Part shown: positions 1,413 to 30,900 of the stretch, piece by piece | Numbering within the stretch: position 1 is the first letter of the stretch | How the letters are laid out: each line of letters begins with the position of its first letter | Assembly: GCA_947653235.1 (NCBI GenBank) | Contig: CANTGH010000001.1 | Location: 247,191 to 311,190 of the forward strand | DNA from: an uncultured Clostridium sp. | GTDB lineage: Bacteria; Bacillota; Clostridia; TANB77; CAG-508 | Length of the DNA: 64,000 nt | Direction: 5' to 3' | Made by a program: the position numbers and the translations under genes | The notes under the pieces: generated by a model | The model's input: only the letters and a program-made list of their open reading frames with translations | The model's database searches: none | Told to the model about the DNA's origin: nothing

Positions 1413-1480
1413 TACTTTTTTTTACTTTTATGAAATTTTTATTTTTCGTTTCAAAAATCCTATTTTTATTAAAAATAACA

Positions 1481-1556
1481 AAAAAAGACCGAGCTTAATA
1501 AAAGTTCGGTCTTTTCTTTATTTTAACATATTTACGTAACTTTGTCAATAATCTGC
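1481..1556. repeat. Hairpin-plus-promoter repeat, copy R1 (bidirectional terminator hairpin 1487-1511 with flanking A/T runs)
   Basis: AAAAAAGACCGAGCTTAATAAAAGTTCGGTCTTTTCTT is nearly identical to the hairpin at 31497-31530. On the minus strand it is preceded by TTGACA-17-TAAAAT (1520-1548), which starts about 30 nt after the stop of the M23 peptidase gene. Confidence 0.6.
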
Positions 1557-3702: not shown

Positions 3703-3850
3703 GCAAAAAAACCTTTGCAAAATGCAAAGGTTAACATTTCGATTTTAAAAATCATCAGCCAAAGCATTGCTTTGTCGGTATTAGCACCTTAAAAATTCAG
3801 GTTGCTGTGGAGTCATAAAGCCGATTCTCTCGTCCACTCTTGATAACATA
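3703..3850 (-). promoter_or_regulatory. SAM-I (S-box) riboswitch with terminator, upstream of metK
   Basis: The minus strand reads TTATCAAGAGTGGACGAGAGAATCGGCTTTATGACTCCACAGCAACC...AAGGTGCTAATACCGAC, which matches the S-box core (YUAUCAAGAG...GGCAACC...GGUGCUAA). The terminator hairpin AACCTTTGCATTTTGCAAAGGTT plus a T-run follows. Confidence 0.85.
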
Positions 3851-4011: not shown

Positions 4012-4130
4012 AACATAAAAACACAGCCTTTCTAAAGGCTGTGTTGCGATTATGTCGCAAAATAGCAAACGAAAGAAAAAACTAAAAAATCGGGATAATT
4101 TTTTGCTATTTTCGTAAAAAATCCTCTACC
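4012..4130 (-). ncRNA. Candidate small RNA (about 115 nt) with its own promoter and terminator, class unknown
   Basis: It lies downstream of a consensus promoter (-35 at 4158-4163, -10 at 4135-4140). No ATG-initiated ORF is present. Three predicted hairpins are seen: CGAAAATAGCAAA/TTTGCTATTTTGCG, TTGCGA/TCGCAA, and the terminator ACACAGCC...GGCTGTGT followed by a T-run. Confidence 0.45.
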
Positions 4131-4206
4131 TTTTATTATATCACATTTACGTTAATTTGTCAACTTGACTTTTTGTAAAAACCTGCTCTCACTTGATTTT
4201 ACTCTG
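4116..4206 (-). repeat. Promoter-bearing intergenic repeat, copy A
   Basis: It shares CCTC(T/C)ACCTTTTATTATATCAYATT...GTCAA(C/G)TTGAC...TGCTCTCACTTGWTTTTACT with copies at 38438-38527 and 50038-50128. It begins about 15 nt after the polA stop codon. Confidence 0.7.
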
Positions 4207-26687: not shown

Positions 26688-26774
26688 ACGCTTCACCTTT
26701 CGTAAATTAGTATGAACGATTTTGGAAAAATTATACAAAGATAGGAAATAAATATCCTATCTTTTTTCATAAAA

Positions 26775-27135
26775 ATGATGAGAGAAGAAACAATTGTTCC
26801 TCCCTCATTTTCTTTTTCAACACTTTATTGTCACCTTACGGTGACCGTGCGTTTGCTCGCATCATAAGTTGCTCCTTCCCTTGCAGTCATGCTCATCTGA
26901 CCCGCCACACTCGACAGCTACTTTACTTGGCATCTGCAGTTTCCAAAGTTTTTACTTTTTTGAAATCGGAACGGAGAATCCCGAGCATTAAATTTTCTTC
27001 TATTCATCGGCTACCTCCCGCACACTGCGCACCGGCTTAGACTGCCCAATTTTCTAAGAAATGATCTAATGTTACTGTCTTCATCGGACTATCTCTCATA
27101 CAATAGCCTCCTTTCAGAAAAATTTTTTAATTTCA
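26775..27135 (-). ncRNA. GC-rich transcription unit of about 350 nt with consensus promoter and terminator, a candidate structured RNA or small-peptide locus
   Basis: The promoter TTGACA-N-TATAAT lies at about 27150-27190 on the minus strand. There is no long ORF in any frame. A terminal hairpin GAGGGAGGAA...TTCTTCTCTC is followed by a T-run. G+C is high relative to the flanks. Confidence 0.4.
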
Positions 27136-27304
27136 ACCAAGAATATTCTTGATATAATTATATTTTAGCATATTTACATAATTTTGTCAATACTTTTTTA
27201 AAAATTTTTTCACTTTTTTCACTTAAAAAAAACGCCCACATACGAAGTCCTTTCTTCGCACCTAGGCGTTTTTTTTATATATTAAACTAAATATATACTA
27301 TATT

Positions 27305-28204: not shown

Positions 28205-29557
28205 TTAGTTTCTAACCAATTGTTTGAATAAATTCCCTCTTTCTTCAAAATTTTTGAAATATTCATAGCTGGAAGCTGCAGGTGATAACACACAAATCGT
28301 ATTTTTTTTCGTAACTTTTTTAGCAATTTTTACTGCTTGTTCTAAATTCTCTACTAAATATACTTTTTTACTTACTTGATTTTTTAAGGTATGATAAATT
28401 ATCTCTCCAGTTTTAGGAAGACAAATGATATGTTCTACCATTGAATTTTGAAGAAATTGAATCAACTCTTGCAAATCAACTCCTCTATCTTTCCCACCTA
28501 CAATTAATGTATTAACTTTTTCAAGTGCCTTTATCGTATAAATGGTTGATTGTGGTATGGTTGCTATAGAATCGTTATAATATTGGACTGAATCAATTTC
28601 ATCCACATATTCCATGCGATGCTGTAAGGTCTCAAAAGTTTCAATTGTTTTAAGGGCTATATCTAGTTCTAAATTCATTTTATCACATACAGCTAGAACA
28701 AACATGATGTTTTGAATGTTGTGTATTCCTTTTAATTTTAGTTTTGTATTTAAATTCATCATTTCTTTCTTGTTACAATATATGTGATTGTTTTGAATAT
28801 ATACGCAATTTTGAGTATCTGTACCCTCTTTTAATGTAATAGCATAATCTGTTGGCTTAAAGATATAGTTTTTCATATTTTGGTTATCATAGTTATAAAT
28901 TAGAATATCTGCTTGTTTTTGATACTTAGTAATGTTATATTTGGCATCTGCATATTGCTCAAATGAATTATAATGATCCAAATGTTCTTCATATAAATTG
29001 AGCCAAATTGCAATATTAGGCGATTGTTTTACATATTGTAAGCTATGAGAAGACAATTCTAGAACAACAATACTATTAGTTTTCAGATTTTCTATACTTT
29101 CCAATATAGGCTCTCCAATATTTCCTAGTAAAAAAGTATCTCTGCCTTGATCTTTTAACACTTGATACATCAAACTACTGGTCGTACTTTTGCCTTTGGT
29201 ACCAGTAATTCCAATCGTGAAACAGTCTACAAATTGTAAAAATAGTTGTAATTGATTGGTTACTTTTTCTTGAAAATTCGTTATGTCTTTATTTTTAAAA
29301 GATAGCCCTGGTGTTTTTAAGATAATATCATATTCTTCTAATCCATTTAAGTATTGCTCGCCCATATTTATTTCTAAGTCAATATCTTCTAAAAATTCTG
29401 GATACTTTTGTAATAAATTGGTTGCTTTATCAGCAATAAACAACTTTTTTTGGGGAAAATTTTTTCGTAAAAAGTCATAAGTTGACTTTCCTTCTATACC
29501 AACACCTAAAATTAAAATTTTTTTATCTTTTAAATATTGTAATAATTTTTTTAACAT
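28205..29557 (-). CDS. murD: UDP-N-acetylmuramoyl-L-alanine--glutamate ligase (MurD family)
   Basis: 450 aa. Contains GITGTKGKSTTSSL (P-loop), LELSSHSL and EHLDHY, which match the Mur ligase/MurD pattern. Confidence 0.8.
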   Translation of the reverse strand: MLKKLLQYLKDKKILILGVGIEGKSTYDFLRKNFPQKKLFIADKATNLLQKYPEFLEDIDLEINMGEQYLNGLEEYDIILKTPGLSFKNKDITNFQEKVTNQLQLFLQFVDCFTIGITGTKGKSTTSSLMYQVLKDQGRDTFLLGNIGEPILESIENLKTNSIVVLELSSHSLQYVKQSPNIAIWLNLYEEHLDHYNSFEQYADAKYNITKYQKQADILIYNYDNQNMKNYIFKPTDYAITLKEGTDTQNCVYIQNNHIYCNKKEMMNLNTKLKLKGIHNIQNIMFVLAVCDKMNLELDIALKTIETFETLQHRMEYVDEIDSVQYYNDSIATIPQSTIYTIKALEKVNTLIVGGKDRGVDLQELIQFLQNSMVEHIICLPKTGEIIYHTLKNQVSKKVYLVENLEQAVKIAKKVTKKNTICVLSPAASSYEYFKNFEERGNLFKQLVRN

Positions 29558-30900
29558 TCAAATAAACTCCTTTTCAAGATTTGCTCAAATTCTTCTGGTA
29601 AATTATTGTTTGGATTATATTCTTTTAACATATCCTCTTCTAATAGTTCAAAATGTTCTTGATAATAGTTTAACAAAAATGGTAATTGAAATTTGGTATT
29701 TTGAATGGTTTTTGAAATTGCAAATCGGATTTCTCGGTAAGTCCCAACACATTCAAATGGCTTGTTTTGACTATAGCCACAAAGTTCAATAAAGGTTTGT
29801 AACAATGATTCTTTTTCGAATAAATCTTCGCCGAAAATTGTAATCAACTTTTCACGATATAAAAATGGACTTAAAATAATAAATGCAAATAAACATTTCG
29901 GACAATCACAACACCATTTCCATTGTTTCTCTTTGCTTCCTACATTACAACTTTTAAAAACAGGATGATAGGCTTCTAACTTTGAAAATAATTTTGCAAT
30001 TTGTATTTCACTAATAGGACGAAGTATACTAAAATATTCTGGTCCATTGGGTGTTATATAGTTTGTTACATAATTTCTAAAATCATTTTCAAATTCTACT
30101 GTTTTGGAATATTGATGATTGATATTTTGCCCTTTAATGTTACTTTCATTCGCACTATCTTCATTAGATAATACAATATATTTTTTATCAAAAATAATGG
30201 CAACAAAATAAGTGATGAAAGCAACCAGTGCGGAAAAAGGCGTGTGACCATTTAAAAATCCCTGTTGATTTAGTTCAATTAAATTGGTATCGATTTTTCG
30301 TTCTACCTCGAATATCTCATCTTCTTTTAATTCTGCAATTTCAGCACATTTTCGTGAAACATCTTCTAGATTGATACGAAATCCAAATCGTTTTTGAGAA
30401 CTCTGTTTCAACAATTCCAAGGTAACATTCGAGTCTTTTCCACCACCAATAGGAATGATACAATCTTGTAAATTAGTTTGACATTCCTCTACTTCCCATC
30501 TCTTACCTTCTGAAAATATTTGAACAAAATCTTCCTGCGAAACTTGGATTTTGTTTTTATAACGAAATTCACCTAAACCAAAATAAATGAGCTTTTTAAA
30601 CCATTTTATTTGTTCTTCTTTTAGTTTTCCACATTTTATCCAAAAATATTGGCTACAGGTTGCTTTAAAATAACTAATTGCTTCTATAATTCCAATATGA
30701 AAAGCAACATTTTGAGCTATATTGCTATGCAAATGATTAATTTTAAAATTCTTTTTACGAATTTTTAAGATGGGATTAAATTGCTTTAATCCTTCAATTT
30801 CGAAACAATATTTTAAATAAATATTAGCTTCATCTTCTTCTATTTGATAGTCTTTATAAATAAATGATTTATATTTTTCTTTTAATTCTTCATATTTCAT
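29551..30900 (-). CDS. PP-loop-like (GGGKDS) protein translationally coupled to murD, possibly MurL-like
   Basis: 449 aa. It has an IPIGGGKDSNV ATP-pyrophosphatase-like motif and a C-terminal CCDCPKC cluster. It overlaps the murD start by 7 nt. Confidence 0.4.
   Translation of the reverse strand: MKYEELKEKYKSFIYKDYQIEEDEANIYLKYCFEIEGLKQFNPILKIRKKNFKINHLHSNIAQNVAFHIGIIEAISYFKATCSQYFWIKCGKLKEEQIKWFKKLIYFGLGEFRYKNKIQVSQEDFVQIFSEGKRWEVEECQTNLQDCIIPIGGGKDSNVTLELLKQSSQKRFGFRINLEDVSRKCAEIAELKEDEIFEVERKIDTNLIELNQQGFLNGHTPFSALVAFITYFVAIIFDKKYIVLSNEDSANESNIKGQNINHQYSKTVEFENDFRNYVTNYITPNGPEYFSILRPISEIQIAKLFSKLEAYHPVFKSCNVGSKEKQWKWCCDCPKCLFAFIILSPFLYREKLITIFGEDLFEKESLLQTFIELCGYSQNKPFECVGTYREIRFAISKTIQNTKFQLPFLLNYYQEHFELLEEDMLKEYNPNNNLPEEFEQILKRSLFEC

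What the first reader, a model, noticed from the sequence alone, without database searches (positions are those of the whole stretch)
26775..27135. GC-rich, ORF-poor transcription unit of about 350 nt with its own consensus promoter and terminator
A consensus promoter (TTGACA...TATAAT, about 27150-27190 on the minus strand) is followed by a GC-rich stretch with no long ORF, then a GAGGGAGGAA/TTCTTCTCTC hairpin with a U-run. It contains two mini-ORFs with excellent RBSs. The first is AAAGGAGG, 8 nt, ATG encoding MRDSPMKTVTLDHFLENWAV. The second is GGGAGG, 6 nt, ATG encoding MNRRKFNA-CGG-..., whose in-frame CGG would shift into the frame of the first mini-ORF. Local strings resemble pieces of SRP-Alu (GGGAGGTAGC) and RNase P (GGGCAGTCT), but the defining motifs of both are missing. 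It may be a novel structured RNA, a dual-function RNA, or a decayed foreign gene.
Basis: seen in the sequence. Interest (0 to 1): 0.55.

Follow-up and report, generated by a model that had tools for sequence, protein, structure and literature searches.

The report
Orphan small transcript in variable slot
A stretch of about 385 bases with its own strong promoter and terminator is really there and matches no known RNA or protein family. It occurs in only this gut Clostridia species (its last 190 bases also in one sister species), so it is most likely a young, lineage-specific small RNA or tiny-peptide gene of unknown role.

Summary
On the minus strand there is a near-consensus promoter (TTGACA, 17 nt, TAAAAT, with TG), a 14-nt 5' hairpin, about 385 nt with no ORF over 29 codons, and an intrinsic terminator. 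GC is 0.41-0.45, against 0.23-0.26 in the flanking spacers.

It is not a known RNA: Rfam gave nothing credible, and there is no tRNA or tmRNA. It is not a detectable pseudogene: six-frame searches of Pfam, 5.8 billion proteins, 1.84 billion representatives and PDB gave nothing real.

Comparison with about 16 congeneric lineages shows a roughly 480-bp insertion between an ssb-like gene's terminator and the next gene's promoter. Ten lineages have nothing in this slot and three carry unrelated small-gene cassettes.

The unit is composite. The 5' 230 nt (promoter, hairpin, a 20-codon ORF with a perfect SD) are unique to this species. The 3' 190 nt (bulged hairpin, purine tract, small hairpin, terminator) recur in one other species.

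Support for RNA structure is thin. Helices are kept with 9 double changes, but only two lineages are compared. Folding energies equal those of shuffles, and divergence is near the synonymous level.

Verdict: an orphan small transcript, possibly dual-function and possibly decaying. Interest is low to moderate.

The parts
27162..27190 (-). Sigma-A-type promoter: TTGACA, 17 nt, TAAAAT with TG extension. It belongs to a 29-nt promoter motif found five times in the window.
   Evidence: An A-rich tract (27220-27191) lies upstream.
27138..27151 (-). Perfect 14-nt palindrome CAAGAATATTCTTG, 4-5 nt from the predicted start (about 27155). It could be a 5'-terminal stem-loop or an operator.
   Evidence: it folds as a hairpin in the MFE and centroid structures; this is the only exact copy in the window.
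27107..27114 (-). Shine-Dalgarno AAAGGAGG, 7 nt upstream of the ORF1 ATG.
   Evidence: sequence; census of SD+ATG sites.
27037..27099 (-). ORF1, 20 codons: MRDSPMKTVTLDHFLENWAV. This is the only mini-ORF with host-like codon usage.
   Evidence: The LLR is 0.288; real genes score 0.44+-0.23. Only 5.7% of spurious ATG-started stop-free windows reach it. No homologue in any relative.
26918..27007 (-). ORF2, 29 codons, with SD GGGAGG at 27019-27014. Probably not a gene.
   Evidence: The codon score of -0.298 is typical of spurious ORFs. Its SD pairs with UUCUCC in the fold. It is not conserved in L098/L099.
26962..27190 (-). Species-specific 5' module: promoter, hairpin, ORF1 and a GC-rich spacer. 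It is flanked by AAAAAAGTA at 27199-27191 and 26961-26953.
   Evidence: Absent from all other loci. The repeat was read and may be chance in A-rich DNA.
26770..26961 (-). 3' module shared with one other species (L098-L101).
   Evidence: Local alignment z=6.5 against shuffles. Alignments A3, A4 and A5. Model R1 finds only these copies in 608 kb.
26872..26948 (-). Bulged hairpin. P1 pairs 26948-26944 with 26876-26872. P2 pairs 26938-26928 with 26895-26882. P3 pairs 26921-26915 with 26904-26899.
   Evidence: P2 has 11 bp, 100% paired, with 2 double changes. P3 has 3 double changes. P2 appears independently in the MFE of the window and of L098. Energy is not better than shuffles.
26872..26882 (-). 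Conserved purine tract AAGGGAAGGAG (SD-like). In the window it is followed by a 9-codon ORF (26865-26836) that L098/L099 lack.
26830..26845 (-). Short hairpin GUCACC-GUAA-GGUGAC. L098/L099 have a different hairpin (UCGCC...GGCGA) at the same place.
26771..26808 (-). Intrinsic terminator: a 12-bp G-U-rich hairpin (26808-26778) and a U-run (26775-26771).
   Evidence: A homologous terminator is present in L098.
26737..26764 (-). Second hairpin, abutting the extended -10 (TGTATAAT, 26737-26730) of the downstream 189-aa gene. This marks the end of the insertion.

Best explanation
This is a lineage-specific, independently transcribed small gene of about 385 nt (about 27155 to 26771, minus strand). 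It sits in an intergenic slot that turns over rapidly in this genus of gut Clostridia (relatives of 'Ca. Scatovivens').

**It is a composite.**
- An older module of about 190 nt (bulged hairpin, purine tract, small hairpin, terminator) lies just after the terminator of the ssb-like gene. One other species has this module without a recognisable promoter.
- In the window's species a 230-nt 5' module was added. It brings a housekeeping-class sigma-A promoter, a 5'-terminal hairpin and a 20-codon ORF with a perfect Shine-Dalgarno.

**Inferred working (none of this is shown here).**
- The promoter drives strong transcription.
- The 5' hairpin and ribosomes held at the strong SD protect the RNA from 5' exonuclease, as described for Bacillus subtilis transcripts.
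- The two tandem hairpin terminators insulate the downstream gene.
- ORF1 is translated into a 20-aa peptide, while the 3' hairpin domain acts as a stabiliser or as a regulatory RNA part. That would make it a dual-function small transcript.

**What is shown:** the anatomy, the insertion, the partial homologue, and the absence of any known family. **What is inferred:** transcription, translation and function.
For: - **Transcription signals.** The promoter scores 11/12 with TG, and the terminator is clear.
- **Promoter class.** The same 29-nt promoter occurs at four other sites in the window, where 0.00 are expected. Three of them lie upstream of the S10 operon, metK and purF.
- **Fixed in the species.** The 615-nt spacer is identical in 5 further contigs of the same species. 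The only difference, in a sixth, lies outside the unit.
- **It is an insertion.** Ten related lineages join the ssb terminator directly to the next gene's promoter.
- **The 3' half has a homologue.** It recurs in L098-L101 (z=6.5). The shared helices are 93.9% paired against 46-62% when the partners are slid. Nine pairs have double changes, against 3.0+-1.4 in shuffles, 0 of 500 reaching the observed value. G-U pairs fit the promoter strand.
- **SD+ATG sites are concentrated here.** Three of the 6 short-ORF sites in 128 kb fall in the unit.
- **ORF1 looks host-like.** Its codon score is within the range of real genes.
- **No known family.** No Rfam, Pfam, NCBIfam, PHROG or PADLOC match.
Against: - There are no expression data.
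- Only two independent lineages exist, and the structure was predicted from the same alignment on which it was counted.
- Folding energies are no better than shuffles. The core gives z -0.20, and the hairpin gives z +1.14, 0.02 and -0.37.
- Window and L098 are 52% identical over the element. That is about the level at four-fold sites of the flanking genes (44-61%), so there is no sign of purifying selection.
- Within the other species the element is less conserved (93.4%) than its flanks (97-99.8%), and it has no promoter there.
- ORF1 has no homologue, and its codon score is reached by 5.7% of spurious ORFs.
Confidence: 0.42

Rival explanations
1. It is a decaying relic with no present function. 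The slot repeatedly gains and loses small promoter-ORF-terminator cassettes, and this one has lost its gene. The promoter, SD motifs and terminator are leftovers drifting neutrally.
For: - The slot holds unrelated cassettes in relatives. L004 has a promoter, a 62-aa membrane protein and a terminator. L002 is a deleted version of it. L104 has a promoter, a 52-aa protein and a terminator. Ten lineages have nothing.
- The 3' module in L098/L099 has no promoter and evolves faster than its flanks.
- Divergence from the window is near the synonymous level.
- ORF2 and ORF3 are not conserved.
- Folds are no better than shuffles.
Against: - The promoter is intact and of the same class as promoters of essential operons.
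- The ORF1 SD, spacing and reading frame are intact, with host-like codons.
- P2 keeps all 11 pairs through three changed pairs.
- No similarity to the other cassettes, so no parent gene can be named.
Confidence: 0.3
2. It is a small polycistronic mRNA for several tiny peptides (20, 29 and 9 aa), in the manner of the B. subtilis yrzI/spyTA operon. There, strong SDs both drive translation and block RNase J1, and the peptides form a toxin/antidote pair.
For: - Three SD+ATG sites lie within 390 nt, against 3 in the rest of 128 kb.
- The yrzI operon is a roughly 500-nt stable mRNA that encodes peptides of 38, 49, 17 and 52 aa behind an exceptionally strong SD (PMC12067863).
Against: - ORF2 scores as a spurious ORF, and its SD is paired in the fold.
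- The ORF3 start codon is missing in L098/L099, although the purine tract is kept.
- None of the peptides is hydrophobic or matches any family.
Confidence: 0.1
3. It is a long leader with an upstream promoter for the downstream 189-aa membrane-protein gene. The terminator at 26808-26778 would act as a regulated attenuator. The purine tract can pair with the terminator's 3' arm as an anti-terminator.
For: - Three other copies of the same promoter motif lie 100-300 nt upstream of a second promoter or a riboswitch of the gene they face.
- GGGAAGGAG can pair with UUUCUUCUC of the terminator (read).
Against: - The downstream gene keeps its own extended -10 promoter in all relatives, with or without the unit.
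- Two hairpin terminators in tandem separate it from the unit.
- No riboswitch, T-box or leader family matches.
Confidence: 0.1
4. It is a frameshifted fragment of a foreign protein-coding gene, on either strand.
For: - GC is higher than in the surrounding spacers.
- There is an 89-codon stop-free frame on the + strand.
- A 20-mer shared with high-GC metagenome contigs encodes FIGYLP, a motif of ABC ATPases.
Against: - No Pfam hit at E<=10 in any of the six frames.
- No hit at E<=10 among 5.8 billion proteins.
- No PDB hit for the FIGYLP frame at E<=10.
- The single hit among 1.84 billion representatives is a tandem sequencing-adapter artefact.
- The five metagenome hits share only 20-22 nt, in unrelated contexts.
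- No frame except ORF1 scores as coding.
Confidence: 0.04

Closest known systems
Dual-function small RNAs of Firmicutes (SR1/SR1P of Bacillus, RNAIII/delta-haemolysin of Staphylococcus). See PMC3526287, PMC12612679 and PMC12310071.
   Same: A short, independently transcribed unit with its own promoter and terminator, a tiny ORF behind a strong SD, and a non-coding structured part.
   Different: There is no sequence or Rfam relationship. No target, no expression data and no conserved peptide are known. SR1 is conserved across several genera, whereas this unit is confined to one species, with half of it in a second.
yrzI (spyTA) small-peptide operon mRNA of Bacillus subtilis (PMC12067863).
   Same: A transcript a few hundred nucleotides long with several tiny ORFs, a very strong SD and a structured 3' end. 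The SD-bound ribosome acts as a block to RNase J1.
   Different: Only one of the three mini-ORFs here looks coding. No toxin-like peptide is present.
STAB-SD and 5' stem-loop mRNA stabilisers of Bacillus (the cryIIIA leader; reviewed in PMC4113751 and PMC3997798).
   Same: GAAAGGAGG near the 5' end, a hairpin at the very 5' end, and a second SD-like tract with no conserved start codon after it.
   Different: Those elements are parts of leaders of long mRNAs. Here no long gene follows before the terminator.
Type I toxin-antitoxin and other small-gene cassettes in variable intergenic spots.
   Same: A patchy, strain- or species-specific presence at one slot, each cassette with its own promoter and terminator. 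The L004 cassette encodes a 62-aa two-helix membrane peptide.
   Different: The window's unit has no hydrophobic ORF, and no convergent antisense promoter was found.
CsrB/CsrC/RsmY class of protein-sponging RNAs.
   Same: Several SD-like GGA-containing purine tracts and a terminator. L098 gave a sub-threshold CsrC match.
   Different: That match scores 23.4 bits against a cut-off of 61. It is not seen in the window or in L099, where only the terminator matches, on both strands. GGA motifs are not enriched over composition; about 8 are seen and about 9 expected (my count).

Membership tests
RNase P RNA (Rfam RF00010/RF00011) | A match to the covariance model, including the conserved regions (GAGGAAAGUCC and the others). 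| tested here: not met
   No match at gathering score or at E<=10. The motif is absent from the sequence.
SRP RNA (small and large bacterial types) | A match to the covariance model (domain IV loop, Alu domain). | tested here: not met
   No match at E<=10.
tmRNA / tRNA | A tRNA-like domain detected by ARAGORN. | tested here: not met
   0 genes in the whole window.
Riboswitch, T-box or ribosomal leader | A match to any cis-regulatory Rfam model. | tested here: not met
   Searches give only chance hits on the terminator. The same scan does find the SAM riboswitch and the L10 leader elsewhere in the window.
CsrB/CsrC/RsmY clan (CL00106) | A score at or above the family cut-off, reproducible across homologues. 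| tested here: not met
   L098 scores 23.4 bits against a cut-off of 61. The window gives no hit. L099 matches on the terminator only, on both strands.
Protein-coding pseudogene | Significant similarity of some reading frame to a protein family. | tested here: not met
   The codon scores of all frames except ORF1 are non-coding.
Dual-function small RNA (a functional class) | Independent transcription from its own promoter to its own terminator. | not testable with these tools
   Sequence signals are present, but there are no expression data.
Dual-function small RNA (a functional class) | A translated small ORF. | tested here: inconclusive
   ORF1 has a perfect SD, a 7-nt spacer and a codon LLR of 0.288. 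However, 5.7% of spurious ORFs score as high, and it has no homologue.
Dual-function small RNA (a functional class) | An RNA part that acts by base pairing or structure. | tested here: inconclusive
   Helices are kept between two lineages, but they are not more stable than shuffles. No target was sought beyond inspection.
Type I toxin-antitoxin | A small hydrophobic toxin ORF and an overlapping antisense RNA. | tested here: not met
   No hydrophobic ORF in any frame. No + strand promoter inside the unit. No PADLOC hit.
Mobile element (MITE, IS or phage-borne) | Multiple copies, terminal inverted repeats, or presence in phage or plasmid records. | tested here: not met
   There is a single copy in the window and in 608 kb of related loci. 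The phage search matched only the 58-nt promoter part, the plasmid search gave no match, and no IMG/VR contig matched.

The most novel reading that the evidence does not exclude
The unit may be a snapshot of gene birth. A neutral hairpin-terminator remnant left in a fast-turnover slot would have been captured by a copy of a dispersed housekeeping-type promoter module together with new 5' sequence. The result would be a strongly expressed new small RNA with a newly arisen 20-codon ORF. The slot itself would then be a recurrent landing place for promoter-bearing micro-cassettes in this genus.
Probability: 0.2. Interest if true: 0.5.

Novelty: new member of a known kind. Interest (0 to 1): 0.27.

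Why it matters
If it is expressed, it would be an uncharacterised small RNA or tiny-peptide gene of an uncultured gut Clostridia lineage. Its composite origin is dated by comparison with sister species. That makes it a usable case for studying how small genes arise and are lost in a single intergenic slot.

It does not bear on any long-standing question. With only two lineages carrying it, it cannot yet be called a family. For annotation, the practical message is that it is not a missed RNase P, SRP RNA, riboswitch or pseudogene.

Tried and rejected
- **Known RNA family.** I ran Rfam at gathering score and at E<=10 on the window, L098 and L099. Only terminator-driven chance hits appeared. The CsrC hit in L098 was not reproduced in the other two.
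- **Protein pseudogene.** I searched the six frames against Pfam and, as one concatenated query, against 5.8 billion proteins. I searched the + strand stop-free frame against 1.84 billion representatives. The single hit, P0121, is a tandem repeat carrying the adapter-derived peptide VSYTHLDVYKRQ.
- **ABC-ATPase fragment on the + strand.** The idea came from metagenome 20-mer hits encoding FIGYLP. No PDB hit at E<=10 and no Pfam hit, so the hits are chance matches of a common high-GC codon string.
- **Homology to the other cassettes in the slot.** The L004 payload score was below the shuffle mean. The L104 cassette gave z -0.9 and the 'MRxSP' resemblance gave E=1.4. Both were rejected.
- **Copies elsewhere.** blastn, nhmmer and model R1 over the window and all loci found nothing. 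Three viral scans found nothing. The phage collection matched only the promoter part, and the plasmid collection matched nothing.
- **Palindrome as a regulon operator.** It has no other exact copy in the window.
- **Within-species variation.** The contigs are 99.9-100% identical, so this has no power.

Full report
**What is in the sequence.** On the minus strand there is a promoter: TTGACA (27190-27185), a 17-nt spacer, and TAAAAT (27167-27162) preceded by TG, giving 11 of 12 consensus positions. The predicted start is near 27155. A perfect 14-nt palindrome, CAAGAATATTCTTG (27151-27138), folds as a 5' hairpin. An intrinsic terminator follows about 385 nt downstream: a 12-bp G-U-rich hairpin at 26808-26778 and a U-run. 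A second hairpin at 26764-26737 lies just before the extended -10 of the next gene.

GC is 0.41-0.45 inside the unit, 0.23-0.26 in the spacers on either side, and 0.27-0.45 in coding DNA. The transcribed strand has no ORF longer than 29 codons.

ORF1 is at 27099-27037, with AAAGGAGG 7 nt upstream. ORF2 is at 27007-26918, with GGGAGG 6 nt upstream. A third start (26865, 9 codons) follows GGAAGGAG. This concentration is not chance. Over both strands of the 64-kb window there are 31 strong SD+ATG sites. Of these, 25 open ORFs of 40 aa or more, and 3 of the 6 that do not are in this unit.

**Not a known RNA.** Rfam 15 gave no match at gathering score. The same scan found a SAM riboswitch and an L10 leader elsewhere in the window. 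At E<=10 the region gave only low-scoring hits on the terminator hairpins. ARAGORN found no tRNA or tmRNA. The strings that resembled RNase P and SRP RNA have no model support.

**Not a detectable pseudogene.** Four searches were made:
- None of the six frames matches Pfam at E<=10.
- A concatenation of all six frames found nothing at E<=10 among 5.8 billion proteins.
- The 89-codon stop-free frame of the + strand found one hit among 1.84 billion representatives. That hit is a tandem repeat carrying an adapter-derived peptide, so it is an assembly artefact.
- A 20-mer of the unit hit five JGI metagenome contigs, but only over 20-22 nt and in unrelated contexts. Three of these hits (two contigs are identical) arise because its reverse complement spells FIGYLP in high-GC codons. 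The corresponding frame of the window has no PDB relative at E<=10.

A codon-usage score trained on 28 long genes of the window rates every frame as non-coding except ORF1.

**The context changes the picture.** The neighbours are an ssb-like gene of the PRK05813 type (27985-27305), murD and a murL-like gene upstream, and a 189-aa membrane protein of unknown family (26687-26118) downstream. I fetched 80 loci around ssb homologues from species-representative genomes; these are uncultured gut Clostridia, several named 'Ca. Scatovivens'. I fetched more from assemblies. The unit matched none of the 80.

In lineages that keep the 189-aa gene, the ssb terminator usually runs straight into that gene's TGTATAAT promoter. 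The ssb-to-gene gap is 96-246 nt in L001, L003, L007, L008, L010, L088-L092, L102, L105, L108 and L110. In the window it is 618 nt. The unit is therefore part of an insertion of about 480 bp (about 27227 to 26745).

It is fixed in its species. Five further contigs are identical over the 615-nt spacer. A sixth has one difference, at 27273, outside the unit.

**The slot is variable.** Three lineages carry other cassettes at the same place:
- L004 has a promoter, a 62-aa two-helix membrane protein and a terminator.
- L002 has a deleted version of the L004 cassette.
- L104 has a promoter, a 52-aa hydrophilic protein and a terminator.

Neither payload is similar to the window's unit, and none matches Pfam, NCBIfam, PADLOC or PHROGs.

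**The unit is composite.** One other species (L098 and L099-L101; their ssb proteins are 99.5% identical) carries an element of about 165-190 nt in the slot. It aligns with the 3' half of the unit, 26961-26770. The local score is 58, against 28.1+-4.6 in shuffles with a maximum of 44, so z=6.5. No sigma-70-like promoter precedes the element there. The 5' 230 nt of the unit (promoter, hairpin, ORF1, and the GC-rich stretch containing the start of ORF2) have no counterpart anywhere. ORF2 spans the junction and is not conserved. The ATG of the third mini-ORF is absent in L098/L099, although the purine tract AAGGGAA(A)GGAG before it is kept.

**Is the shared part a structured RNA?**

In favour:
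- RNAalifold predicts a bulged hairpin (P1 26948-26944 with 26876-26872; P2 26938-26928 with 26895-26882; P3 26921-26915 with 26904-26899), a small hairpin and the terminator.
- Counting gives 93.9% of cells paired, against 46-62% when the partners are slid by 1-3 columns. Nine pairs have changes on both sides, against 3.0+-1.4 in shuffles, with 0 of 500 reaching the observed value.
- P2 keeps all 11 pairs through two double changes and one G-C to G-U change.
- Single-sequence folding of the window and of L098 recovers P2 independently.
- The G-U pairs fit the strand that carries the promoter and the U-run.

Against:
- There are only two independent lineages, and the structure was derived from the alignment on which it was counted.
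- Folding energies are no better than shuffles. The whole transcript gives z -1.74, the core z -0.20, and the hairpin z +1.14, 0.02 and -0.37.
- Window and L098 are 52% identical over the 98-nt core. That is close to the identity at four-fold sites of the flanking genes (44% and 61%).
- Within the second species the element is less conserved (93.4%) than its flanks (97-99.8%).
- A covariance model of the core found no further copy in the window or in 90 loci, 608 kb in all.

I rate the structure as suggested but not shown.

**ORF1.** It has the best possible SD at a good distance. Its codon score is 0.288. Real genes score 0.44+-0.23, and off-frame windows score -0.87+-0.56. Among spurious ATG-started stop-free windows of the same length the mean is -0.17, and 5.7% score as high. 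It is a plausible tiny gene but has no homologue. ORF2 scores -0.298, which is typical of spurious ORFs, and its SD is paired in the predicted fold.

**The promoter.** The 29-nt string TTGACAAANTTAYGTAAATATGNTAWAAT occurs five times in the window at no more than 2 mismatches, where 0.00 are expected. Apart from the unit, the sites are:
- upstream of the S10 operon leader (1548);
- upstream of the SAM riboswitch and metK (4163);
- upstream of purF (47352);
- facing the end of a convergent gene (44192).

The unit therefore carries a promoter of the class used by core growth genes, which argues for real and probably strong transcription. It also raises the possibility that a dispersed promoter module was recruited.

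**Most likely explanation.** I take the unit to be a lineage-specific small transcript built in two steps. An older hairpin-terminator module lay behind ssb, and a promoter, 5' hairpin and ORF1 module was later added in this species. By analogy with Bacillus, the 5' hairpin and the SD-bound ribosome would protect it from 5' exonuclease, as with the STAB-SD element and the yrzI mRNA (PMC4113751, PMC12067863). The two tandem terminators would insulate the neighbour. It may be dual-function (a peptide plus an RNA domain), like SR1 (PMC3526287). Transcription, translation and function are all inferred.

The main rival is that it is a decaying cassette without function. The near-neutral divergence, the missing promoter in the other species and the unremarkable folding energies all fit that reading. 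A multi-peptide mRNA, a leader for the 189-aa gene and a foreign pseudogene are less likely, for the reasons given under rivals.

**Novelty and score.** The unit belongs to no described family, but its kind is familiar: a species-restricted small RNA or small-ORF gene in a variable spacer. With two lineages and no expression data it is a candidate, not a family. A specialist would not be surprised by it. Its modest value is as a dated example of small-gene turnover and possible promoter capture.

Noticed in passing
window 1520-1548(-), 4135-4163(-), 27162-27190(-), 44192-44220(+), 47324-47352(-): A 29-nt extended promoter motif, TTGACAAANTTAYGTAAATATGNTAWAAT, occurs five times where 0.00 are expected. 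Its spacer holds a near-palindrome, ATTTAYRTAAAT. Three copies (4163, 44192, 47352) also share about 20 nt downstream (ATAATAAAAGGTAGAG..TTTTTTA). Two of them share AAAGTCAAGTTGA upstream, as if a roughly 55-nt promoter-bearing repeat were dispersed in this genome. Each copy is followed within 20-45 nt by a T-run or hairpin.
   Followed up: partly
L004:3760-4140, L002:3760-3925, L104:2300-2715, L098:1315-1495 (same slot as window 26745-27227): The spacer between the ssb-like gene and the 189-aa gene is a hot spot. At least four unrelated inserts occur there among about 16 congeneric lineages. They include cassettes for a 62-aa two-helix membrane peptide (L004) and a 52-aa basic hydrophilic peptide (L104), each with its own promoter and terminator. 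Neither peptide matches any family.
   Followed up: partly
window 1475-1548 (-): One copy of the promoter motif sits between the stop codon of the gene at 1580-2398 and a strong terminator hairpin (GACCGA...TCGGTC, T7). The promoter therefore fires straight into a terminator about 10 nt after its start. A second promoter (about 1413-1385) then serves the S10 leader.
   Followed up: no
window 29551-30900 (-) and 28205-29557 (-): A murL-like gene (UDP-MurNAc-L-Ala-L-Glu epimerase; NF041275 scores 258 bits, below its cut-off of 700; Pfam MurL_N and MurL_epimerase_C appear in the gene tables) overlaps a murD-like ligase. This pairing was described in Xanthomonadales, yet here it is in a Clostridia lineage and is conserved in all relatives fetched.
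   Followed up: no
window 3749-3849 (-) and 57839-58019 (-): A SAM riboswitch (74 bits) and a ribosomal protein L10 leader (49 bits) are the only Rfam matches at gathering score in the window.
   Followed up: no
L048:3684-4314: In one relative the gene after ssb is metK behind a SAM riboswitch. The metK reading frame appears interrupted near 4090-4110, so there is either a frameshift or an assembly error.
   Followed up: no
P0121 (protein library): This 492-aa 'protein' consists of six to seven tandem copies of a unit ending in VSYTHLDVYKRQ, which is the translation of a sequencing-adapter junction. It is an assembly artefact that can give spuriously low E-values by summing repeats.
   Followed up: yes
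window 27138-27151: The perfect 14-bp palindrome CAAGAATATTCTTG sits 4-5 nt after the predicted start. That position also suits a repressor operator. There is no second exact copy in the window.
   Followed up: partly
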